Part shown: positions 1-48,642 of the stretch, in pieces
Numbering within the stretch: position 1 is the first letter of the stretch
Layout of the letters: each line of letters begins with the position of its first letter
Origin: an uncultured Fibrobacteraceae bacterium
Lineage (GTDB): Bacteria; Krumholzibacteriota; Krumholzibacteriia; LZORAL124-64-63
Assembly: GCA_964559455.1 (NCBI GenBank)
Contig: CAZLHO010000003.1
Location: forward strand, 42,963-106,962
DNA length: 64,000 bases
Direction: 5' to 3'
Program-made: the position numbers and the translations under genes
Notes under the pieces: generated by a model
Told to the model about the DNA's origin: nothing
Database searches by the model: none
Seen by the model: the letters and a program-made list of their open reading frames with translations, nothing else

Positions 1-596
1 AGGCATTCCGTGTAGCGGTTCCAGTGCAGGATCTTGGTCGTCTCGGAGATGATCTGGATGATGCCCTTGGGACAGGCGCGGGCGCAGGAGCCGCAGCCGA
101 CGCAGCGGTCGGGGTCGAAGATCGGCAACCCCAGCGGGCCCATCGTGATCGCGCCGAACTTGCAGGCGCGCACGCAGGTGCCCAGGCCCAGGCAGCCGTG
201 GTCGCAGCGCACGGGACCGTGGTAGAAGAGCATCGCGGCGCGGCAGTCGTCGAAGCCGGCGTAGACGTACTTGCGCAGGGCGCGCACGCCGCCCTGGCAG
301 TCCGGACAGGCGATCTGCGGCTCGGTGTCGACCAGCTCCATGCCCAGGAACGCGGCGACCTGGGTCGCGACCTCGGTCTGGCCGACGACGCAGGCGTTGG
401 GTTCGGCCTGGGCCTTGACGATCGCCTCGGCGCAGGCGGCGCAGCCGGCGAAGCCGCAGCCGCCGCAGTTGGCGCCGGGCAGCAGGTCGGCCACCCCCTT
501 GATGCGGGGGTCCTCGGCGACGAAGAAGATGCGCGCGGCGACGCCCAGTCCGACGGCGGCGACGGCGGCGATCCCGCCCAGGATGGCGGCTGGCAT
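1..596 (-). CDS. rnfB: Rnf electron-transport complex subunit B (RnfB), C-terminal part runs off window edge
   Basis: Minus-strand reading frame open to position 1; ATG at 596..594. N-terminal TM helix (MPAAILGGIAAVAAVGL), then GANCGGCGFAGC-type Cys cluster and several CxxCxxC ferredoxin motifs. Positioned after rnfA as in rnfCDGEAB clusters. Confidence 0.8.
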   Translation of the reverse strand, partial: MPAAILGGIAAVAAVGLGVAARIFFVAEDPRIKGVADLLPGANCGGCGFAGCAACAEAIVKAQAEPNACVVGQTEVATQVAAFLGMELVDTEPQIACPDCQGGVRALRKYVYAGFDDCRAAMLFYHGPVRCDHGCLGLGTCVRACKFGAITMGPLGLPIFDPDRCVGCGSCARACPKGIIQIISETTKILHWNRYTEC

Positions 597-627
597 CCAC
601 ATATCCAGACTCCCGTCTCTACGGTCC

Positions 628-1203
628 CTACTGCACCATTCCGGCGAAGCCCAGGAACGCCAGCGACATGACGCCGGCGGTGACCAGGGCGATGGCGGTT
701 CCCTGCATCGAACGCGGCACCGGCGAGAGGAAGAGCCTCTCGCGCACGCCGGCGAAGAGCACGATCGCCAGGGCGAAACCGGCGGCGCTGGCCGCCGCGA
801 AGACCACCGTCTGCAGCAGGTTGAACTCGTGTTTGATGTTGAGCAACGCGATGCCCATCACGGCGCAGTTCGTCGTGATCAGCGGCAGGTAGATTCCCAG
901 CGAGTCGTAGAGGGCGCGGCTCTGCTTCTTCAGGAAGATCTCGACGAATTGCACCAGGGCGGCGATGACCAGGATGAAGACCAGCGTCTGCAGGTACTCC
1001 ATGCCCTGGGGCGCCAGGATGTAGTAGTAGGCCAGCCAGGTGAAGATCGAGGCCAGGGTGGCCACGAAGATCACGGCCAGCCCCATGCCCATGGCCGTGC
1101 CCAGCTTCTTCGAGACGCCGCAGAAGGGGCAGTTCCCCAGGTACTGCGCCAGCAGGATGTTGTTGACGAAGATGGCGCCGACGGCCAGCAGGATCAGGTT
1201 CAC
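628..1203 (-). CDS. rnfA: Rnf complex subunit A (RnfA/RsxA)
   Basis: 191 aa polytopic membrane protein with strong similarity to E. coli RsxA (VNNILLAQYLGNCPF.GVSKKL..AMGMGLAV...LPLITTNCAV). Confidence 0.95.
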   Translation of the reverse strand: MNLILLAVGAIFVNNILLAQYLGNCPFCGVSKKLGTAMGMGLAVIFVATLASIFTWLAYYYILAPQGMEYLQTLVFILVIAALVQFVEIFLKKQSRALYDSLGIYLPLITTNCAVMGIALLNIKHEFNLLQTVVFAAASAAGFALAIVLFAGVRERLFLSPVPRSMQGTAIALVTAGVMSLAFLGFAGMVQ

Positions 1204-1213
1204 GAGCCGCCCC

Positions 1214-1825
1214 CTAGGTCTGGATGAAAATCTCGCCGCGCTTGCGGCTCCAGGCGTTCATCAGCCCGAGCAGGACGCCCAGGCAGAGGAAGGCGCCGGG
1301 CGCCTTCACCATGAAACCGAAGGGCTCGTAGCCCTCGCCGAAGACCGGCATGGCGAACCAGGTGCCGGCGCCCAGGATCTCGCGCAGCGAGCCCACCAGC
1401 GTCAGCGACATGGTGAAGCCCAGGCCCACGCTGAGGCCGTCGGCCATCGAGATCGCCACCGGGTTGCGCGAGGCGAAGGCCTCGGCGCGGCCCAGGATGA
1501 TGCAGTTCACCACGATCAGCGGGATGTAGATGCCCAGCTGCTGCGAGAGCGGGAAGAAGAAGGCCTTCATCACCAGCTCGACCAGCACGACCAGGGTGGC
1601 GATCAGCACGATGTAGCTGGCGATGCGGACCTTGTCCGGGATCACCTTGCGCAGCATCGAGATGAACATGTTCGAGAAGATCAGGACGAAGGTCACGGCC
1701 ACCCCCATGCCCAGGCCGTTCTCGGCCGTGGCGGTCACGGCCAGCGAGGGGCAGAGCCCCAGCACCAGCCGGAAGGGGGGCAGGTCGCGCCAGAATCCGT
1801 GGGTCAGCGCCTGTCGGAAGTTCAT
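1214..1825 (-). CDS. rnfE: Rnf complex subunit E (RnfE/RsxE)
   Basis: 203 aa membrane protein, RnfA paralogue pattern (LVLGLCPSLAVT..GLGMG; IPLIVVNCIILGRAEAFA). Confidence 0.95.
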   Translation of the reverse strand: MNFRQALTHGFWRDLPPFRLVLGLCPSLAVTATAENGLGMGVAVTFVLIFSNMFISMLRKVIPDKVRIASYIVLIATLVVLVELVMKAFFFPLSQQLGIYIPLIVVNCIILGRAEAFASRNPVAISMADGLSVGLGFTMSLTLVGSLREILGAGTWFAMPVFGEGYEPFGFMVKAPGAFLCLGVLLGLMNAWSRKRGEIFIQT

Positions 1826-1828
1826 CGT

Positions 1829-2443
1829 CTACGCTCCCTCGGCGGGCCGGTCGTCGCCGGCGGCCGCGATCAGCTCCAGGATCTCGGCCTTGCGGCCGCG
1901 GACCAGGTCCAGCACCTGGTTCGTACCGTCGATCATCGCCCGGGACGAGTAGGTGGCGCCGGTGATGGCGTCCACCGATCCGCCGTCCGTGCGCAGGGCC
2001 GCCGGGGCGGCGACCGTCATTCCCGTCCACTGGCGGCGGAAGGAGGGGGTCTCGACCCGCGCCCCGACGCCGGGGGTCTCGCCGTGGGCGACGATCTCCA
2101 CGCCGAGCAGCCGCTCGCGGGGCAGGTCGACGCCGATCATGATCACGATGTCGCCGGCGTAGCCGCCGTGGCCGGGGGCCTCGACGGCGATGCCGGTCAC
2201 CTCGCCGTTCTCGCGGGTGAAGAAGACGGGGTAGGACAGGCCGTCGGATTCGATCACGACCTTGTTGGCCAGCAGTTCGTCGGCGGGGCGTTCGAAGAGC
2301 CGCTCGAGGGCGGGTCCCCGCACGTAGAAGTCGCTCTGCTGTTCGATGCGCGGGGCCAGGGCCTCGCGCACGTAGGCCAGCGCGGCGGCGCTCAGCGAGC
2401 AGATCAGGCCCAGGACGACGACCAGACGCAGGATCTCACGCAT
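1829..2443 (-). CDS. rnfG: Rnf complex subunit G (RnfG), FMN-binding
   Basis: Internal ATG at 2443 gives MREILRLVVVLGLICSLSAAALA signal-anchor. FMN-binding region with conserved S/TGATYSSRA motif. 8-nt overlap with rnfD. Confidence 0.9.
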   Translation of the reverse strand: MREILRLVVVLGLICSLSAAALAYVREALAPRIEQQSDFYVRGPALERLFERPADELLANKVVIESDGLSYPVFFTRENGEVTGIAVEAPGHGGYAGDIVIMIGVDLPRERLLGVEIVAHGETPGVGARVETPSFRRQWTGMTVAAPAALRTDGGSVDAITGATYSSRAMIDGTNQVLDLVRGRKAEILELIAAAGDDRPAEGA

Positions 2444-3416
2444 CGCTCGGCACCTCCAATCCCACGATCCGGGGCGTGAAGCGATCCAGCAGCGGACTCG
2501 CCAGGTTCGCCAGCAGCACGGCGAAGACCACGCCGTCGACATGGCTGGAGAAGGCGCGGATCAGCACCAGCAGGCAGCCGGCGAGCAGGCCGTAGATCAG
2601 CATCGGCCAGGGGTTCACCGGCGAGGTGGTGGACTCCGGCGCCAGGAAGAAGGCGGCCATCACGGTGCCGCCGGCCAGGATCTGGAAGAGGGGCGACGCG
2701 GTCAGCCCCGGGGCGGCCAGCCCGACGATCCAGGCGCAGAGCGCGACCCCGCCCAAAAATCCCAGGGGCACCTGCCAGGGGATCTGGCGCAGCACCAGCA
2801 GCAGCAGCCCGCCGGCCAGCAGCCAGAGGACCATGGCGCTGCCCGCGCCGGCGGCCTGGAAGCCCAGCAGCAGGTCCAGCTTGTCGTAGGCGCCCTCGGC
2901 GCCGGCGCCCAGGGTCTTCACCAGGCGCATCGGCTCGACGATGCTGCGCTCCCAGCCGATCCCCACCAGCGAGGCGGTGGCGTCCAGGCGGGCCGGCCAG
3001 GACACCGAGAGCATGGCGTAGCTCAGGGCCACCGGGTGGACCGGGTAGCCGCCCCAGCCGCCGAAGAGCTTCTTGCCGAAGATGATCATCAGGAAGCAGC
3101 CGACCAGGACCAGCCACCAGGGCGTGTCCAGGGGCAGCATCATGGCCAGCAGCACGCCCAGGGTGGCGCTGCTCCAGTTCCCGGTGTGGTCCTTGGCGGC
3201 CAGGAAGCGGTTGCCCAGCGCGTCGAAGACGATCGAGGCGCCGACGGCCAGTCCGATCACGCGCAGCGCGCGCACGCCGAAGACGGCCACGGCCGCGACC
3301 ACGGCCGGCAGCAGGGCCAGCAGCCACAGCAGCTGCATCCGGCTCAGGGAGCTGCCGTCGTGCAGGTGGGGGCTCGAGGCGACGCTCAGCGTGGTGGTTT
3401 CGAGATCCTGGTTCAT
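2436..3416 (-). CDS. rnfD: Rnf complex subunit D (RnfD)
   Basis: 326 aa polytopic membrane protein with RnfD/NqrB-like sequence (GGTVMAAFFLAPE.TTSP). Confidence 0.95.
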   Translation of the reverse strand: MNQDLETTTLSVASSPHLHDGSSLSRMQLLWLLALLPAVVAAVAVFGVRALRVIGLAVGASIVFDALGNRFLAAKDHTGNWSSATLGVLLAMMLPLDTPWWLVLVGCFLMIIFGKKLFGGWGGYPVHPVALSYAMLSVSWPARLDATASLVGIGWERSIVEPMRLVKTLGAGAEGAYDKLDLLLGFQAAGAGSAMVLWLLAGGLLLLVLRQIPWQVPLGFLGGVALCAWIVGLAAPGLTASPLFQILAGGTVMAAFFLAPESTTSPVNPWPMLIYGLLAGCLLVLIRAFSSHVDGVVFAVLLANLASPLLDRFTPRIVGLEVPSDA

Positions 3417-3419
3417 CGC

Positions 3420-4700
3420 TCAACCCCCGTACTTCTTGGCCATCTTCACCAGCTGCACCAGCGGCCGGTGAGCGGGGCAGACGAAGGCGCAGAGACCGCA
3501 TTCGTGGCAGGCTTCGGGATGCAGGGCCAGGGCGTCGGCCATCTGGTCGTATTCGACGCAGCGGCCGAGCAGGTGGACCTGGATGTTCTGGGGGCAGGCC
3601 TGGGTGCAGCGCCCGCAGTTGACGCAGGTCAGGTTCAGCTCCGTATGCAGGCGGTCGGCCGCCATCAGGTAGACGCCGTGCTGCAGCTTGGTCAGGGGCG
3701 TCTCGTCGGTGTACTGCGCCGTGCCGTGCATCGGCCCGCCCGCGATCAGCCGTCCGCCCTCGGGCAGGGACAGCCCCCGGTTCGCCAGCAGGTCGCGCAG
3801 CCGGGTGCCCAGCGGCGCGCGCAGCGTCACCGGACGGGGCAGCGAGTCGCCGGTCAGGGTCACCGTCTTGTGGGTGAAGGGCCGGCCGGAGAGGGCGTCC
3901 AGGGCGGCCAGGGCGTTCTCCACGGTGAGCACGCCCACGCCGTGGCTGCGGTAGGCCTGGTCGACGGGGATCCGGATGCCGGTCAGCCGCGGGATCACCA
4001 CGCGCTTGAGCCGGTTCCGGTAGTCGTCGGGCAGGCCCACGACCTCCACCGCGTCGCCGAAGGTCTCGGCCGCCCAATCCCGCAACGAGCGGGAGGTCAG
4101 CAGCCACAGCTTGGCCTGGGGCTCGATCTCCGTCACGCGGCGCACGCCGTCGCGGATGTCGTCGGCGCGGGCGCGCAGCAGCAGTTCCTGGTTGGAGATC
4201 GTCGGCTCCTGATGCATCGCCAGCAGCACGATGTGCCGGATGGGCGGGTAGGCGTCCAGGTCGCCCTCGCAGTCCATGTGGCCGGGCGTGGTCCAGGGTG
4301 TGATGACGCCGCCGACGCGCAGCAGTTCCAGGCGCGAGGCCGAGGCCAGATCGAGGCCGCTCTGGGCCAGGGTCTCCTCGGGGGCCAGGGCGGGCGGCGA
4401 GCCGCGGACGATCTCGACCGCCGGCACGTGGTACCCGCGGGCGGTCCAGACGGCGCGGATCTCGTCGACCCGGCCGCCGATCGAGGCGTGGATGCAGTTG
4501 CCCAGTTCCGAGCGGCCGATCACCTGGTTGCGGGCGACCTCGTCGCCGGCCTGTACCGTGGGGCGGAAGAGGATCCGGCCCGGGTACTCCAGGGGAATGA
4601 CGACCGACTCGGGATCGGGCAGGTCGACGATCTCGGGGTCGCCCTCGATGCGGCGCGGCACGCGCGCGGCGGGTGGTTTCAACAGGTCGAGCAGGCTCAT
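3420..4700 (-). CDS. rnfC: Rnf complex subunit C (RnfC), NADH-binding, 2x[4Fe-4S]
   Basis: 426 aa. C-terminal CVNCGRCTQACP and CHECGLCAFVCP ferredoxin motifs. RnfC N-terminal domain. Confidence 0.95.
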   Translation of the reverse strand: MSLLDLLKPPAARVPRRIEGDPEIVDLPDPESVVIPLEYPGRILFRPTVQAGDEVARNQVIGRSELGNCIHASIGGRVDEIRAVWTARGYHVPAVEIVRGSPPALAPEETLAQSGLDLASASRLELLRVGGVITPWTTPGHMDCEGDLDAYPPIRHIVLLAMHQEPTISNQELLLRARADDIRDGVRRVTEIEPQAKLWLLTSRSLRDWAAETFGDAVEVVGLPDDYRNRLKRVVIPRLTGIRIPVDQAYRSHGVGVLTVENALAALDALSGRPFTHKTVTLTGDSLPRPVTLRAPLGTRLRDLLANRGLSLPEGGRLIAGGPMHGTAQYTDETPLTKLQHGVYLMAADRLHTELNLTCVNCGRCTQACPQNIQVHLLGRCVEYDQMADALALHPEACHECGLCAFVCPAHRPLVQLVKMAKKYGG

Positions 4701-4716: not shown

Positions 4717-5337
4717 TCACTTCAGGTGGCAGGCCCCGCACATGACCTCGCCCTTCGCGTCGGCGAAGCGGGTCGCGGCCGCCGCCAGGTGGCAGGCGTT
4801 GCATTGGGCGTGATAGGCGTCGGCGACCGAGCGCGGCGTGTGGCAGCCCACGCATTCGTGGCCGTCGATCGCCAGCAGTTCGGCGTGGGTCGCCATGTCG
4901 GGACCGAAGTCGTCGTCGTGGCAGGAGTCGCAGCCCAGGAAGGCGGCGCCCTCGGCGGCGGCGGCCGGGTGGCAGGCGCGGCAGCCGCGAGCCTGTCCGG
5001 AGTCCGCCAGCTCGTGGCAGCCCTCGCAGCTGTGGCCGTCGATCGCGGTCAACTCGTCGTGCCCGGCCAGGTCCGGTGTGTAGTCGTCGTCGTGACAGTC
5101 GGCGCAGGGACCGGCCTCGCCGACGAGCTCGTGGTGGCAGACCGCACAGGCGTCGGTCGCTTCCTGGTGTCCCGCATGCGCGAAGAGGACCGCGCCGCTG
5201 GAGTTGCGCAGGTAGACGGTGTCGGCGCCGGCTTCGGGGGCCGGCAGCAGGTAGCCGACCAGGCCGCAGACGCAGGCCGCGACGGCGACCGTCGTCAGCG
5301 CCAGCAGCTTCCCGCGGGGATTGGAGGGATTGGCCAT
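4717..5337 (-). CDS. Periplasmic multiheme c-type cytochrome (8 CxxCH motifs) encoded immediately upstream of rnfC
   Basis: Start at ATG 5337 (MANPSNPRGKLLALTTVAVAACVCGLVGYLL signal/anchor). Eight CxxCH motifs in ~150 residues with an internal tandem duplication (C.DCHDDD[YF].PD...H.EL.AIDGH.C.GCH). Stop lies 16 bp upstream of the rnfC start. Confidence 0.8.
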   Translation of the reverse strand: MANPSNPRGKLLALTTVAVAACVCGLVGYLLPAPEAGADTVYLRNSSGAVLFAHAGHQEATDACAVCHHELVGEAGPCADCHDDDYTPDLAGHDELTAIDGHSCEGCHELADSGQARGCRACHPAAAAEGAAFLGCDSCHDDDFGPDMATHAELLAIDGHECVGCHTPRSVADAYHAQCNACHLAAAATRFADAKGEVMCGACHLK

Positions 5338-5342
5338 CTTCG

Positions 5343-5816
5343 TCACCACTCCATGCTGTCGTCGAGGATGATCTTGTGCTGGTCGTCGGGATCGATGCGG
5401 TGCCAGTGGCAGCCTTCGCGCATGCAGAAGTAGAAGGGCACCTTGATGCTCGAGATCGCGACCATCACGCAGGCGACCTGGGCGTCGCCCCGCTCGCATA
5501 GGTGGCCTTCGACCCGCAGCGAGCGGTGGCAGTGGTCACAGCGCAGGTCGGCGACCTCCTGCCCGTCGGGCAGGCGGATGTCGCTGCGCCGCTCGAAGAC
5601 GTTCAGGAAGGGGCTGAGCTCGACCCACCCCGTCCGGCCGTCCTGGGTGACGGTCTCCAGATGGATCATGTGCTCGCGAACCAGGCTCTCGCCGCAATGC
5701 GGGCAGAAGGAGTTCAGGAAGGAGCCGGTCTTGAGCACCGTCCGCTCGTTGTAGCGGTGCGCCTTCCAGTAGATCTCCTCCCAGCGGTCACCCTTGTCGT
5801 TCTTGTCGGGGGCCAT
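5343..5816 (-). CDS. Cys-rich hypothetical protein (CPHC/CDHC zinc-ribbon-like), first gene of the cytochrome-rnf operon
   Basis: 157 aa, no signal peptide, eight Cys including CxxC pairs. 5-bp gap to the cytochrome gene. GC3-rich coding frame. Confidence 0.6.
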   Translation of the reverse strand: MAPDKNDKGDRWEEIYWKAHRYNERTVLKTGSFLNSFCPHCGESLVREHMIHLETVTQDGRTGWVELSPFLNVFERRSDIRLPDGQEVADLRCDHCHRSLRVEGHLCERGDAQVACVMVAISSIKVPFYFCMREGCHWHRIDPDDQHKIILDDSMEW

Positions 5817-5883
5817 GGGTCCACCTCGATTCCGCGCCCGGAGGCGGGCGCCGTGAAATTGCTCGCTCGTCCCTAAAGAGCGA

Positions 5884-5912
5884 TGTGAACGCTAGGTGAA
5901 CAAGCGTTCACG
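5884..5912. promoter_or_regulatory. Inverted repeat TGTGAACGCT-N9-AGCGTTCAC containing a Rex-like core GTGAA-N6-TTCAC (5897..5912) in the rnf operon upstream region
   Basis: Read directly: 5885 tgtgaacgct aggtgaaca agcgttcac 5912. Arms GTGAA/TTCAC with 6-nt spacer match the Rex operator core TTGTGAA-N6-TTCACAA. Lies in an AT-rich island between the epimerase stop (5981) and the rnf operon. Confidence 0.4.
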
Positions 5913-5980
5913 ATGAGAAATAATATCATATATCACCACAATGATATGACTTAGGCGGATGGCGGAGGCCGGCCCGGGGG

Positions 5981-7621
5981 TCAGCAGCCTCCGCGCAGGC
6001 GGACCGGCAGGGCATCCTCGCAGATGTTCTCGAGTTGCCGGACCATATGCTCAAGGTCGCCGGGGGAGGTCGGGAGCTCGCCCAGGTTCCGGATCCGGTC
6101 GAGGAACTCGGGCGACGGGTCCGCCAGCAGGTCGTAGGCGTCCTCGACCCCGTCCCCGGCCAGCTGGAAGCTGAGGTTGACGTGGTCGTGGATCTGCTGG
6201 TGGAAGTCGGCGAGGTCCGGCGTCTCGCGCAGGGAGGCGCCGATGATCTCGCCGACGGTCAGCAGGAAGTCGCGGACCTGCTCGGCCGAGAACCCTTCCT
6301 GGCGGCGGCGGACGGCGATCGCCTGGGCGTAGTTGCGGACCAGCTGCCGGTCGCGCGTCCTCACGGCGGTCACCAGCACCTGGTAGACCAGGGTGATGAA
6401 CCAGCGCAGCACTTCGGGGGCCATCTTGTGATAGCCGCAGAAGCGCTGCGCGTTCTCGGGGGCGGAGACGACCTGGGCGATGCGCTCGACCAGGGCCTCG
6501 CGCTGGTCGGTCAGGATCTCGCTGATCAGCAGGTTCGGACGGCGGGCGGTGCGGTGCAGGGCCGTCTCGTTGCGCAGGCTCCAGGCGCCGTGGTGGGATT
6601 TCATGTTCTCGATCATCACCAGCAGGCGGCGCTGGATGTCCAGACGCGGGGTCGGGCGCCAGCCCGTCTCGGCCTGGGTCCGCGTCGCGTCCACGCGCAG
6701 CTGCTTGTCGAGGTAGCGCATCATCCAGGGGGCCTCGAAGGGCGGCGAGCCGGTCAGGCGGCCCAGCCACCAGCGGGCGGCGACGCCGGGCGCGGCCAGC
6801 CACTTCGGCATCAGCCGGGGCTTGCCTTCCTCTCCGTAGAAGTAGCGCGTGGCCGAACGGAAGAGGTCCTTGTGGGTGGTGACGTGGTTCGGGCTGGCGT
6901 TCAGGACGTGGATCCGCGGCAGCTGGTCGCTGATCTCCAGGGTCCGGTGGATCAGCCGCATCAGGTCCTGGATGTGGATGTAGGTGACGGCGGAATCGCC
7001 GCGGCCGCCCAGGATGCGCGCGTTCCAGTGCTCCGAGAGCCATGTCCGCAGGAAGACGTAGACCGGAGGATACTCGCACCAGTCGCTGAAGACCGCCGCG
7101 AAGCGCAGGATCGAGGCCGGGAACCACTCGGCGAATTCGTTCACCATGTCCTCGCCGCGGCGCTTGCTCCAGGCGTAGGCGAAGTCGGCGTCGGGCGGGG
7201 TCTGCTCATCGACGACCGCGTCGCCCTCGGGGAAGCGGCAGGCGGCGAGCGAGCTGGCGAAGAGGAAGCGCTTGACGCTGAGCTGCTGGGTCAGCTTCAG
7301 CACGTTGCGCGTGCCCTGCACGTTGGTCCGCTCGTACTCGGGGTGGTTCATGTGCTGGAAGTCGTAGTAGCCCGCCAGGTGCAGCACGTAGTCGGCGCCG
7401 CCGTGGTCCTTGATGCAGCGCACGACCTCGCGCATCGTGCTCCAGTTGGCGATGTCGACCTGGGTCCAGCGCAGGTTGTCGTCGGGGGGGACGCCTACCT
7501 CGCGGCGGGAGCGCCGCGCCAGGCAGAACAGTCGGTAGCGGCCGGTGGCGCTGGCGAGGAAGTGGCGTCCGACGAAGCCCGAGGCTCCGGTGACCACGAT
7601 GCCGGGCAGGCTCTTGTCCAT
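5981..7621 (-). CDS. NAD-dependent epimerase/dehydratase (SDR) family protein with long C-terminal extension
   Basis: Start at ATG 7621 (MDKSLPGIVVTGASGFVGRH = Rossmann GxxGxxG). ~250-aa SDR core followed by ~290-aa extra domain. Confidence 0.8.
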   Translation of the reverse strand: MDKSLPGIVVTGASGFVGRHFLASATGRYRLFCLARRSRREVGVPPDDNLRWTQVDIANWSTMREVVRCIKDHGGADYVLHLAGYYDFQHMNHPEYERTNVQGTRNVLKLTQQLSVKRFLFASSLAACRFPEGDAVVDEQTPPDADFAYAWSKRRGEDMVNEFAEWFPASILRFAAVFSDWCEYPPVYVFLRTWLSEHWNARILGGRGDSAVTYIHIQDLMRLIHRTLEISDQLPRIHVLNASPNHVTTHKDLFRSATRYFYGEEGKPRLMPKWLAAPGVAARWWLGRLTGSPPFEAPWMMRYLDKQLRVDATRTQAETGWRPTPRLDIQRRLLVMIENMKSHHGAWSLRNETALHRTARRPNLLISEILTDQREALVERIAQVVSAPENAQRFCGYHKMAPEVLRWFITLVYQVLVTAVRTRDRQLVRNYAQAIAVRRRQEGFSAEQVRDFLLTVGEIIGASLRETPDLADFHQQIHDHVNLSFQLAGDGVEDAYDLLADPSPEFLDRIRNLGELPTSPGDLEHMVRQLENICEDALPVRLRGGC

Positions 7622-7732
7622 GGGCGTCCCTCCGCGCGGGGGTCTGGCGTCTATCTCTATCATGATGGTTGGATTTCATCAGCGCAAGGCCGGTGTCGCG
7701 GCGGGGCCCCGGCGGGGGGAAACAACGGATCC

Positions 7733-47205: not shown

Positions 47206-48372
47206 ATGCCCCGACGCATCCGCATCTGCTACGTCATCAACGCCTTCGCGATCGGGGGAGCGGAGACCGTGGTCCTGGACCTCGCCCGCGGCCTCGACCC
47301 CGAGATCTACGATGTCACCGTCCTGGCCGTCCACGATCGGGCCGGCGGCGAAGAGCCCGAGATGCGGCGCCGATTTCGGGCGGCGGGGGTGCGCACGGCG
47401 GCGATGACTCTGGGTTCGATGCGCAATCCGCTGTCGCTGTACCGGCTCTGGCGGTTCCTGCGGTCCGGCCGCTTCGACATCGTGCACGGTCACAATCGCC
47501 CGAGCGACGCCTGGGCGGTCACCGTCGGGGGCTGGGCCGGGATCCCCCACCGGTTGTGGACTCGGCATCTGGTCTATCGGGACATGAGCCCTCGCCAGTT
47601 GAGTCGCTATTCGGATATCTCGCGCCGGGCCGCGATCGTGCTGGCGGTCTCCGATGCGGTGCGGGAGAACTGCATCCGGGTCGAGGGCGTCTCGCCCGAC
47701 AAGGTGACGACGCTGGTCAACGGCATCGACACGGACCGTTACCGGCCGCTGGGCGCGGAGGCCAGGCGCGCCAAGAGACGCGACCTGGGACTCGCCGAGG
47801 GCCAGCGGATGCTTCTGTTCGTGGGCAGGTTGTCGCATCAGAAGGCCCCGGACGCCTTCGTGCGGCTGATCTGGTCGTTGCGCGAGGAGAGGCCGGAGAT
47901 CCGCGGGTTCGTCTGCGGCGGGGGACCGTTGGCGGCGGATCTGGCGACAATGGTCGCCGGCGGCCCCGGCGGCGTCGATCTGCTCGGTTTCCGGGGGGAT
48001 GTCCCGGCACTGCTCGGGGCCAGCGACCTTTTCGTCTCCACCTCGCGGAACGAGGGGCTGCCCTTGAACATGATGGAGGCCATGTCCTGCGCCGCGCCCT
48101 TCGTCGGGCCGGACATTCCGCAGGTCTCGTGCCTCTTCGCGGGCGAGGCTTCCCTGCGCAGGCGACTCTATGCGCCGCCGCCCCTGGAGGGGGATGTCCC
48201 CGCCGGGACCCTGGCTGCCTGGCGCGACCGGATTATCGCCGCGCTGGACGATCCCATGGCGGTCGCCGTCGGGAATCGGGGACGAGAAATCATCCGCGGG
48301 GAGTACTCGCTCGGCAGGATGATCGAGCGCCATCACGAGATCTACCTAAGTTTCGCGTTGTCAGGGAATTGA
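47206..48372 (+). CDS. GT4-family glycosyltransferase
   Basis: ATG 47206 preceded by GGGAG. ICYVINAFAIGGAE...NEGLPLNMMEAMS. Confidence 0.85.
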   Translation: MPRRIRICYVINAFAIGGAETVVLDLARGLDPEIYDVTVLAVHDRAGGEEPEMRRRFRAAGVRTAAMTLGSMRNPLSLYRLWRFLRSGRFDIVHGHNRPSDAWAVTVGGWAGIPHRLWTRHLVYRDMSPRQLSRYSDISRRAAIVLAVSDAVRENCIRVEGVSPDKVTTLVNGIDTDRYRPLGAEARRAKRRDLGLAEGQRMLLFVGRLSHQKAPDAFVRLIWSLREERPEIRGFVCGGGPLAADLATMVAGGPGGVDLLGFRGDVPALLGASDLFVSTSRNEGLPLNMMEAMSCAAPFVGPDIPQVSCLFAGEASLRRRLYAPPPLEGDVPAGTLAAWRDRIIAALDDPMAVAVGNRGREIIRGEYSLGRMIERHHEIYLSFALSGN

Positions 48373-48397
48373 CAATATGTCCGCAGTGGATTATCAT
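48369..48397 (+). promoter_or_regulatory. Sigma-70 promoter-like TTGACA-N17-TATCAT at the head of a 270-bp lower-GC leader
   Basis: Direct read. Overlaps the stop of the preceding GT4 gene. Confidence 0.45.
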
Positions 48398-48642
48398 AAG
48401 GGAGCGATTTGGACCGGTCCCCGTGCCTTCGGGAGACTTCCGGTTTTCAGCCTTGCCACCCCGCAACGGCTTCGTGAGGAGTTGACTAGAGCGATTTTTG
48501 CTACAGCCAGGCAACTCGCGGACGATTGTATTTTCACGTAGCCGGTGTGCGTCTGCCTTCAGACCAACGCAAGATATTCCAAGGGGGTGTGCCACCCCCC
48601 GCTACCCGGTATTCGCCGCCGGGCCAGGTTGACAGGTGTGCC

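What the first reader, a model, noticed from the sequence alone, without database searches (positions are those of the whole stretch)
5884..5950. Rex-like operator (GTGAA-N6-TTCAC) nested in a longer inverted repeat upstream of the cytochrome-rnf operon
Seen: TGTGAACGCT-aggtgaaca-AGCGTTCAC (5885..5912). The inner GTGAA-caagcg-TTCAC (5897..5912) matches the core of the Rex operator TTGTGAA-N6-TTCACAA. A second repeat ATATCAT-N12-ATGATAT (5924..5949) lies in the same AT-rich island. Established: Rex represses rnf and other NADH-linked operons in several phyla in response to NADH/NAD+. Inference: redox control of this Rnf/cytochrome operon. Alternatively the 9-bp-arm repeat may be the intrinsic terminator of the upstream epimerase gene.
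Basis: partly seen in the sequence, partly recalled or inferred. Interest (0 to 1): 0.5.

Follow-up and report, generated by a model that had tools for sequence, protein, structure and literature searches.

The report
Rex-like operator in rnf operon promoter
A short inverted repeat sits on the predicted promoter of a cytochrome/Rnf energy operon in an uncultured Krumholzibacteria-like bacterium and is most likely a repressor binding site with Rex-type half-sites, but its spacing is 2 bp wider than any validated Rex site, so it is an ordinary regulatory element whose regulator is unconfirmed.

Summary
On the + strand, GTGAACGCT (5885-5893) pairs with AGCGTTCAC (5903-5911). The inner palindrome GTGAAC-AAGC-GTTCAC is at 5896-5911.

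Validated sites are TTGTGAA-N4-TTCACAA; this site is GTGAA-N6-TTCAC.

Comparative evidence still ties Rex to this operon family. Canonical N4 boxes lie upstream of orthologous operons in 9 of 45 loci, against about 0.35 in shuffles. A rex gene is the divergent neighbour in three loci. The window's 6-4-6 palindrome recurs with at most one mismatch at -95 to -108 in four of the closest lineages, over a conserved -35-like TTG. The outer 9-bp arm is not conserved. There is no U-tract and no rex gene in the 64 kb.

Verdict: a promoter-embedded operator, probably Rex or Rex-like with non-canonical spacing; not a terminator. The second AT-rich repeat is not significant. Interest is low to moderate.

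The parts
5896..5911 (.). Inner 6-4-6 palindrome GTGAAC-AAGC-GTTCAC. Read in the direction of the genes it is GTGAAC-GCTT-GTTCAC. This is the conserved core of the element and the candidate operator.
   Evidence: unique exact match in 64 kb; the same 6-4-6 pattern, with at most 1 mismatch, lies at -95 to -108 from the ATG in L026, L030, L052 and L056. Shuffles give a mean of 0.12 loci, maximum 2.
5885..5893 (.). Outer arm GTGAACGCT, the third Rex-type half-site. It pairs with 5903-5911 to give the 9-bp-arm, 9-nt-loop inverted repeat. It is also a direct repeat of 5896-5901 at 11-bp spacing.
   Evidence: 0.7% of shuffles. Not conserved: absent in L026 and 3 bp closer in L001.
5853..5857 (-). 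Fourth Rex-type pentamer (TTCAC on the minus strand), in the predicted 5' UTR.
   Evidence: it completes the only cluster of 3 or more such pentamers within 60 bp in the window. L052 has GTTCAC at the same offset.
5898..5903 (-). Predicted -35 hexamer TTGTTC, lying inside the spacer and right arm of the palindrome.
   Evidence: anchored alignment: TTG is conserved in all 8 sequences. In six of them (L052, L030, L056, L001, L006, L028) a TATnnT hexamer follows 17 bp later. One search confirms the TTG conservation (G invariant, preceding T nearly so).
5874..5880 (-). Position where the -10 hexamer is expected (CTCTTT at 17 bp or TCTTTA at 18 bp). It is a poor match in this window.
   Evidence: window and L026 deviate from TATnnT; no strict TTGNNN-N16-18-TANNNT in the intergenic region; no minus-strand promoter called.
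5923..5947 (.). AT-rich second repeat ATATCAT-N11-ATGATAT. It also contains ATATCA-N6-TGATAT.
   Evidence: within chance (7-bp repeats in about 12% of shuffles). Not conserved in orthologs. No stable RNA fold, z = -0.2.
5962..5994 (-). GC-rich hairpin GCGGAGGC-N17-GCCTCCGC overlapping the epimerase stop codon (5981-5983).
   Evidence: -23.9 kcal/mol, z = -1.8, no U-tract; not called as a terminator.
5834..5851 (-). 5'-UTR hairpin GCGCCCG-CCTC-CGGGCGC, just upstream of the ribosome-binding site GAGGTGG (5821-5827).
   Evidence: -15.8 kcal/mol, z = -1.7.
5343..5816 (-). Conserved 157-aa Cys-rich ORF, the first gene downstream of the element.
   Evidence: 52 homologs, seven invariant Cys; no Pfam or NCBIfam family.
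4717..5337 (-). Octahaem c-type cytochrome (8 CxxCH motifs).
628..4700 (-). rnfC (3420-4700), rnfD (2436-3416), rnfG (1829 to about 2440), rnfE (1214-1825), rnfA (628-1203). rnfB begins below 627 and runs off the window.
5981..7663 (-). Upstream epimerase/SDR-like gene (560 aa) with a C-terminal extension. It is a conserved neighbour of the operon.
   Evidence: It abuts the 157-aa gene directly in L003, L004, L007, L029, L033, L051 and L053-55.

Best explanation
The inverted repeat is a transcription-factor operator built into the promoter of the orf157 - octahaem cytochrome c - rnfCDGEAB operon. Its conserved core is the inner 6-4-6 palindrome GTGAAC-GCTT-GTTCAC (gene orientation). The right half of that palindrome contains the conserved -35-like TTG, so a bound dimer would block RNA polymerase.

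The half-sites are of the Rex type (GT[G/T]AA), and orthologous operons in related lineages carry canonical Rex boxes. The most likely factor is therefore the NADH/NAD+-sensing repressor Rex or a Rex-like variant. It would hold the operon off when NADH is low and release it when NADH rises.

Shown here: the repeat, its uniqueness, its conservation, its position over a conserved promoter-like block, and the Rex-box enrichment in orthologs.

Inferred, not shown: that it is bound at all, that the binder is Rex, and that a Rex dimer can span a spacer 2 bp longer than in every validated site.
For: - Gene layout and orientation.
- Uniqueness and significance of the repeat and of the half-site cluster.
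- Conservation of the 6-4-6 palindrome at the same distance from the ATG in L026, L030, L052 and L056, and partly in L001, while the flanks are unalignable.
- A conserved TTG, followed 17 bp later by TATnnT in six orthologs, puts the palindrome at about -43 to -28.
- Validated Streptomyces Rex footprints cover -39/-17, -50/-22 and -42/-16 and include the -35: PMC5355995.
- Canonical TTGTKAA-N4-TTMACAA boxes with 2 or fewer mismatches: 16 hits in 434 kb of orthologous loci, 13 of them within 450 bp upstream of orf157. That is 9 of 45 non-redundant loci, against a mean of 0.35 (maximum 2) in 300 local shuffles.
- The rex gene (Pfam PF06971 + PF02629) is the divergent neighbour of orf157 in L041-L043, with two canonical boxes.
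- The G/T alternation at half-site position 3 is the same in the N4 and N6 sites.
- dhcA-rnf is a predicted Rex target in Desulfovibrio: PMC4045070.
- Rex can also touch isolated half-sites next to full sites: PMC5355995.
Against: - The spacing is N6, not the N4 found in all validated Rex operators. For a rigid dimer, 2 extra bp is a large change.
- No N4 box exists in this upstream region or anywhere in the window.
- No rex gene is in the 64 kb. No Krumholzibacteria-labelled Rex appeared among the top 120 Rex homologs, though that list is too short to be informative.
- The lineages with the 6-4-6 site and those with N4 boxes do not overlap, which could mean two different factors.
- The spacer bases TT are as conserved as the arms. 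The -35 requirement alone would explain that.
- The -10 in this window is poor, so the promoter model is weakest for the window itself.
- The same core, TGAAC-N4-GTTCA, also fits ArsR/SmtB 12-2-12 operators and the GAAC-N4-GTTC core of the Gram-positive LexA box (recalled from memory).
Confidence: 0.5

Rival explanations
1. The palindrome is an operator, but for a different dimeric winged-helix regulator (unknown; possibly ArsR/SmtB-like or another redox or metal sensor). In this sub-lineage that regulator has replaced canonical Rex control of the operon.
For: - The 6-4-6 geometry (TGAAC-N4-GTTCA) is the core of ArsR/SmtB 12-2-12 operators, for example AATACCTGAACA-GA-TGTTCAAGTATT (PMC8790569).
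- The N6 and N4 lineages do not overlap.
- Other lineages carry unrelated palindromes in the same promoter: L050 has CAACATGTTG and L052 has ATCACAC-CCT-GTGTGAT. This suggests operator turnover.
- A FUR-family gene is the divergent neighbour on the P0015 contig.
Against: - No regulator gene lies next to the operon in the window.
- The 12-bp ArsR arms (AATA...TATT) are not present.
- The half-site alphabet GT[G/T]AA is the same as in the canonical Rex boxes of sister lineages.
- The operon is not a metal-efflux operon.
Confidence: 0.22
2. There is no dedicated factor. The conserved block is just promoter architecture (-35 TTGTTC plus an upstream GTTAAC-like element), and the palindromic symmetry and the 9-bp outer arm are fortuitous.
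For: - TTG and the upstream GTTAnC are conserved even where there is no palindrome: L006, L028 and the L008 group.
- 6-bp palindromes are common by chance.
- The outer arm is not conserved.
Against: - The right-arm bases beyond the -35 (the 'AC' of GTTCAC, GATCAC and GTTAAC) are conserved in all five 6-4-6 lineages but not in others.
- The pattern recurs with at most 1 mismatch in 4 lineages, against 0.12 expected.
- The 9-bp repeat appears in 0.7% of shuffles and the cluster of four half-sites is unique in 64 kb.
Confidence: 0.13
3. The 9-bp-arm hairpin acts in RNA as the terminator, or a 3'-end stabiliser, of the upstream epimerase transcript.
For: - The minus-strand RNA folds into the 9-bp stem at -14.6 kcal/mol, z = -3.4 against shuffles.
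- It lies about 70 nt downstream of the epimerase stop codon.
- High-GC bacteria are reported to use terminators with poor U-tracts (my own knowledge, not checked here).
Against: - The tail is AUCGCUCU, only 3 U in 8 nt, and the terminator scan found nothing.
- One arm is absent in L026 and shifted in L001, so the hairpin is not conserved.
- In many lineages the two genes abut and are probably co-transcribed.
- There is no Rfam match.
Confidence: 0.07

Closest known systems
Rex operator (ROP) of the NADH/NAD+-sensing repressor Rex, e.g. Streptomyces TGTGAACGCGTTCACA and S. aureus TTGTGAA-W4-TTCACAA
   Same: - Inverted GTGAA/TTCAC half-sites. The hexamer GTGAAC is identical to the Streptomyces half-site.
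- Extra isolated half-sites lie nearby.
- The predicted position covers the -35.
- The target is an NADH-linked respiratory operon. Cytochrome-rnf is a predicted Rex target in Desulfovibrio.
- Orthologous operons carry canonical boxes.
   Different: The spacer between GTGAA and TTCAC is 6 bp, not 4. No canonical 18-mer is present. A rex gene was not seen. Binding is untested.
ArsR/SmtB 12-2-12 operators (core TGAACA-NN-TGTTCA)
   Same: Identical core geometry, TGAAC-N4-GTTCA. Both overlap promoter elements.
   Different: The 12-bp arms and AT-rich flanks are missing. There is no adjacent arsR-family gene and no metal-resistance cargo. Orthologs have TTAAC or GATCA in place of TGAAC.
Gram-positive LexA (Cheo) box CGAAC-N4-GTTCG
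   Same: The GAAC-N4-GTTC core matches 8 of 8 positions.
   Different: The flanking C/G are not matched. GAAC is not conserved in orthologs, which have TAAC or GATC. There are no DNA-repair genes nearby. Rejected.
Intrinsic (rho-independent) terminator
   Same: A stable stem-loop downstream of a stop codon.
   Different: No U-tract, a 9-nt loop, not conserved, and it overlaps a conserved promoter-like block.

Membership tests
Rex operator (ROP) | Inverted repeat of TTGTGAA-type half-sites | tested here: met
   TCGTGAA (6/7), AGGTGAA (5/7) and ATGTGAA (6/7), plus a fourth TTCAC. TCGTGAA and ATGTGAA both occur in validated Streptomyces ROPs.
Rex operator (ROP) | 4-bp spacer between GTGAA and TTCAC (18-bp site) | tested here: not met
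   The spacer is 6 bp. There is no N4 match with 3 or fewer mismatches in the upstream region, and none with 2 or fewer in the 64 kb. Consensus taken.
Rex operator (ROP) | Located in or just downstream of the promoter of a redox or energy-metabolism operon | tested here: inconclusive
   It overlaps a conserved -35-like TTG whose -10 partner is clear in six orthologs but weak in the window. The transcription start is not mapped. The cargo is cytochrome c + Rnf.
Rex operator (ROP) | Same motif upstream of orthologous operons or other regulon members | tested here: inconclusive
   Canonical N4 boxes are enriched upstream of orthologs in other lineages. The N6 form recurs in the four closest lineages. 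No second site of either form is in the window.
Rex operator (ROP) | A rex gene in the same genome | not testable with these tools
   None in the 64-kb window or in the flanks of close relatives (tblastn). Present next to the operon only in the distant loci L041-L043. The rest of the genome is not available.
Rex operator (ROP) | NADH-sensitive binding by Rex | not testable with these tools
   Needs EMSA or footprinting.
Intrinsic terminator | G+C-rich stem directly followed by a U-tract | tested here: not met
   The stem is present (-14.6 kcal/mol), but the tail AUCGCUCU is not U-rich. The scan found 0 terminators.
Intrinsic terminator | Hairpin conserved at the 3' end of orthologous genes | tested here: not met
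   The outer arm is absent in L026 and shifted in L001. The genes are fused with no gap in at least 9 loci.
ArsR/SmtB 12-2-12 operator | 12-bp imperfect arms around TGAACA-NN-TGTTCA, next to an arsR-family gene or metal genes | tested here: not met
   Only the 5-bp core with its N4 spacer matches. Symmetry does not extend beyond 6 bp for the inner repeat. No ArsR gene is nearby.
LexA Cheo box | CGAAC-N4-GTTCG conserved upstream of SOS genes | tested here: not met
   The core GAAC-N4-GTTC is present, but the flanks mismatch. GAAC is not kept in orthologs. The cargo is not SOS.
Sigma-70-type promoter | -35 TTGnnn and -10 TAnnnT separated by 16-18 bp | tested here: inconclusive
   The -35 TTG is conserved in all 8 aligned sequences. 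The -10 TATnnT at 17 bp is seen in L052, L030, L056, L001, L006 and L028, but the window has CTCTTT/TCTTTA. A consensus TTGACA-17-TATCAT elsewhere in the window shows this promoter type is plausible in this organism.

The most novel reading that the evidence does not exclude
The 6-4-6 palindrome (GT[G/T]AAC-N4-G[T/A]T[C/A]AC) is a distinct operator class. It would be read either by a Krumholzibacteria Rex variant that tolerates or requires a spacer 2 bp longer, or by a new redox regulator with Rex-like half-site specificity. In one sub-lineage it would have replaced the canonical Rex box at the same promoter of the orf157-cytochrome-rnf operon.
Probability: 0.2. Interest if true: 0.5.

Novelty: new variant of a known kind. 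Interest (0 to 1): 0.3.

Why it matters
If the site is a working operator, NADH-linked redox control of a cytochrome c/Rnf operon extends from Firmicutes, Actinobacteria and Desulfovibrio into the uncultured Krumholzibacteria and related FCB lineages.

Orthologous promoters with N4 or N6 spacing would also give a natural test of how strictly Rex dimers read half-site spacing.

In practice, the result gives a conserved promoter/operator block and a regulon anchor for annotating these genomes.

It also flags a widespread, uncharacterised 157-aa zinc-ribbon-like protein as the first gene of these cytochrome-Rnf operons.

Tried and rejected
- **Canonical Rex box in the window.** None with 2 or fewer mismatches.
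- **rex gene in the window or locus flanks.** It hit only L041-L043, later confirmed as Rex through P0053's Pfam domains.
- **Krumholzibacteria-labelled Rex.** None among the 120 best of 2028 Rex homologs listed. The list is too short, so this is uninformative.
- **Ravcheev 2012 Rex regulon paper (PMC3294762).** Not held. I took the consensus from three other papers instead.
- **Other motifs.** I found no sigma-54 promoter, no FNR site, and only a 3-mismatch CRP-like site. There is a 3-mismatch Fur 7-1-7-like site at 5914-5928, which I did not pursue.
- **LexA.** Rejected on conservation and gene context.
- **ECF-type promoter (GAAC...CGT).** Rejected by eye: the spacing is too short and it is not conserved.
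- **MerR-type long-spacer promoter.** Considered by eye; there is no dyad in the spacer.
- **Rfam.** Nothing relevant.
- **L047.** Same organism with identical DNA, so it adds no conservation evidence.
- **P0015 contig.** It has a FUR-family neighbour, but no DNA was available.
- **Scan caps.** The genome and metagenome scans were each used once, so I could not re-scan for rex in the relatives' genomes.

Full report
**What is there**

The window is high-GC (about 68-70%). Around the finding, every real gene is on the minus strand, so transcription runs from high to low coordinates.
- An epimerase/SDR-like gene of 560 aa occupies 7663..5981.
- A 164-bp intergenic region (5980..5817) contains an AT-rich island with 43% GC.
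- A 157-aa Cys-rich ORF follows at 5816..5343. It has a good ribosome-binding site (GAGGTGG) and no Pfam or NCBIfam family.
- Next comes a c-type cytochrome with eight CxxCH motifs (about 5337..4717).
- Then rnfC, rnfD, rnfG, rnfE and rnfA. The start of rnfB runs off the left end of the window.

**Checking the observation**

The repeats exist, but one base lower than stated.
- GTGAACGCT is at 5885-5893 and AGCGTTCAC at 5903-5911: 9-bp arms with a 9-nt loop.
- The inner GTGAAC-AAGC-GTTCAC is at 5896-5911.
- The second repeat is ATATCAT (5923-5929), 11 nt, then ATGATAT (5941-5947). The gap is N11, not N12.

A 9-bp perfect inverted repeat appears in 0.7% of shuffles of the intergenic region. Three GTGAA/TTCAC pentamers in the island appear in 0.14%. 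With a fourth TTCAC at 5853-5857, this is the only cluster of three or more Rex-type pentamers within 60 bp in the whole 64 kb. The 7-bp second repeat is within chance (about 12% of shuffles) and is not conserved, so I set it aside.

**The Rex consensus**

The published consensus has a 4-bp spacer.
- S. aureus: TTGTGAA-W4-TTCACAA (PMC2883068).
- Eleven footprinted or shifted Streptomyces avermitilis sites are all 18-mers (PMC5355995).
- The cross-phylum consensus TTGTGAANNNNTTCACAA is cited from Ravcheev 2012 (PMC6391272).

The window site is GTGAA-N6-TTCAC. It amounts to a Streptomyces-type ROP (GTGAAC-GC-GTTCAC) with two extra central bases. No N4 site with 3 or fewer mismatches exists in the upstream region. 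None with 2 or fewer exists anywhere in the window.

**Comparative evidence**

The 157-aa protein is a tightly conserved family. There were 52 hits, nearly all exactly 157 aa, with seven invariant Cys. Named sources include Krumholzibacteria, Zixibacteria and CSSED10-310. Using it as an anchor, I collected 56 loci. The same gene order, orf157 - small multihaem cytochrome - rnfCDGEA - long rnfB, is seen wherever the contig is long enough.

Three results matter.

1. *Canonical Rex boxes are enriched upstream of this operon family.* The pattern TTGTKAA-N4-TTMACAA with 2 or fewer mismatches gives 16 hits in 434 kb of loci. Thirteen lie within 450 bp upstream of orf157. That is 9 of 45 non-redundant loci, against a mean of 0.35 (maximum 2) in 300 shuffles that keep local composition.
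   - In L008, L009, L013 and L034 the box is at -39 to -41.
   - In L011 and L048 its left half-site coincides with the -35-like TTG.
2. *A rex gene sits next to the operon in some lineages.* In L041-L043 a 204-aa gene is the divergent neighbour of orf157, and two near-perfect boxes lie in the shared intergenic region. An identical database protein, P0053, carries PF06971 + PF02629.
3. *The window's own 6-4-6 palindrome is conserved in its nearest lineages.* The pattern GTKAAC-N4-GTTMAC with at most 1 mismatch occurs at -95 to -108 from the ATG in L026, L030, L052 and L056. The window's copy is at -95. Shuffles give a mean of 0.12 loci. L001 has a 2-mismatch version.

An alignment anchored on this block shows GTTAnC-NN-TTGtTnaC. 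In six orthologs TATnnT follows exactly 17 bp later, which is a sigma-70-like promoter whose -35 lies inside the right arm of the palindrome. The flanks are otherwise unalignable, so the block is under selection.

It is missing in L026 and 3 bp closer in L001. In L001 it instead forms a degenerate N4 box, TTGTTTC-CTCT-TTAACAT.

**How it most likely works**

The palindrome would span roughly -43 to -28 of the predicted promoter. That is the region covered by validated Rex footprints in Streptomyces: -39/-17, -50/-22 and -42/-16, 'encompassing the -35'. A dimer bound there would exclude RNA polymerase.

The half-site alphabet, GT[G/T]AA, is the same in the N6 sites and in the canonical N4 boxes of sister lineages. 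The operon is an NADH-linked respiratory module, and its Desulfovibrio analogue dhcA-rnf is a predicted Rex target (PMC4045070). Rex, or a Rex-like variant, is therefore the best single candidate.

The binding itself, the identity of the factor, and the tolerance of a +2-bp spacer are all inferences. The weak points are these:
- The non-canonical spacing.
- No rex gene in the 64 kb.
- The N4 and N6 lineages do not overlap.
- The window's -10 hexamer is poor, CTCTTT/TCTTTA.

**Rivals**

- *A different winged-helix regulator.* The core TGAAC-N4-GTTCA is exactly the centre of ArsR/SmtB 12-2-12 operators (PMC8790569). Other lineages show unrelated palindromes in the same promoter (L050, L052). One contig has a FUR-family neighbour. 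However, the long ArsR arms, an adjacent regulator gene and a metal-related cargo are all missing.
- *Promoter architecture plus chance symmetry.* This is possible. But the right-arm bases beyond the -35 are conserved only in the 6-4-6 lineages.
- *Terminator of the epimerase gene.* The RNA hairpin is stable (-14.6 kcal/mol, z = -3.4). It has no U-tract, the scan finds no terminator, it is not conserved, and in at least nine loci the two genes abut.
- *LexA box.* The GAAC-N4-GTTC core is met, but conservation and gene context reject it.

**Verdict**

This is an ordinary kind of object, a promoter-embedded operator. Comparative support for Rex control of the operon family is good. But the site fails the defining spacing of a Rex operator, so I do not file it as a canonical ROP.

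Novelty is a variant of a known kind. Interest is low to moderate (0.3).

The most novel reading that survives is a Rex variant or new redox regulator reading a 6-4-6 site. I give it about 0.2.

Noticed in passing
[not shown]
   Followed up: partly
L047:2400-2700 versus window 5730-5990: A metagenome contig from the same organism has identical intergenic DNA but lacks roughly 150 bp covering the ribosome-binding site, start codon and first ~28 codons of orf157. This may be a natural deletion variant or a misassembly.
   Followed up: no
L043:2924-4000, and the same region in L041/L042: A rex gene is transcribed divergently from orf157. Two near-perfect Rex boxes (TTGTGAATATATTCACCA and ATGTGAAAATATTCACAA) lie 20-62 bp upstream of rex. 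A 377-aa multihaem cytochrome gene sits on the other side of rex.
   Followed up: yes
P0015 contig (no DNA); window 5914-5928: On one relative's contig a FUR-family gene is the divergent neighbour of orf157. The window has a weak Fur 7-1-7-like site, TGATATTATTTCTCA (3 mismatches), just upstream of the palindrome.
   Followed up: no
window 48358-48398: A perfect palindrome TTGTCA-GGGAAT-TGACAA lies in a divergent intergenic region. Its right arm is the -35 of a consensus sigma-70 promoter, TTGACA-17-TATCAT, pointing at the + strand gene that starts at 48526.
   Followed up: partly
L050:5900-6000; L052:600-716: The same promoter carries different palindromes in other lineages. L050 has CAACATGTTG in the spacer, and L052 has ATCACAC-CCT-GTGTGAT overlapping the -35. 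This suggests operator turnover at a conserved promoter.
   Followed up: no
window 5981-7663 (-); L003, L004, L007, L029, L033, L051, L053-L055: The epimerase/SDR-like gene has a roughly 200-aa C-terminal extension and is a conserved upstream neighbour of orf157. In many lineages it abuts or overlaps orf157 with no AT-rich island, so it is probably part of the operon there.
   Followed up: partly
L050:11034-12474; L051:11082-12474; window 1-627 (-): In relatives, RnfB is a protein of about 690-700 aa fused to a Pyr_redox_2/NAD-binding (GltD-like) module. The window's rnfB starts just below 627 and runs off the edge.
   Followed up: no
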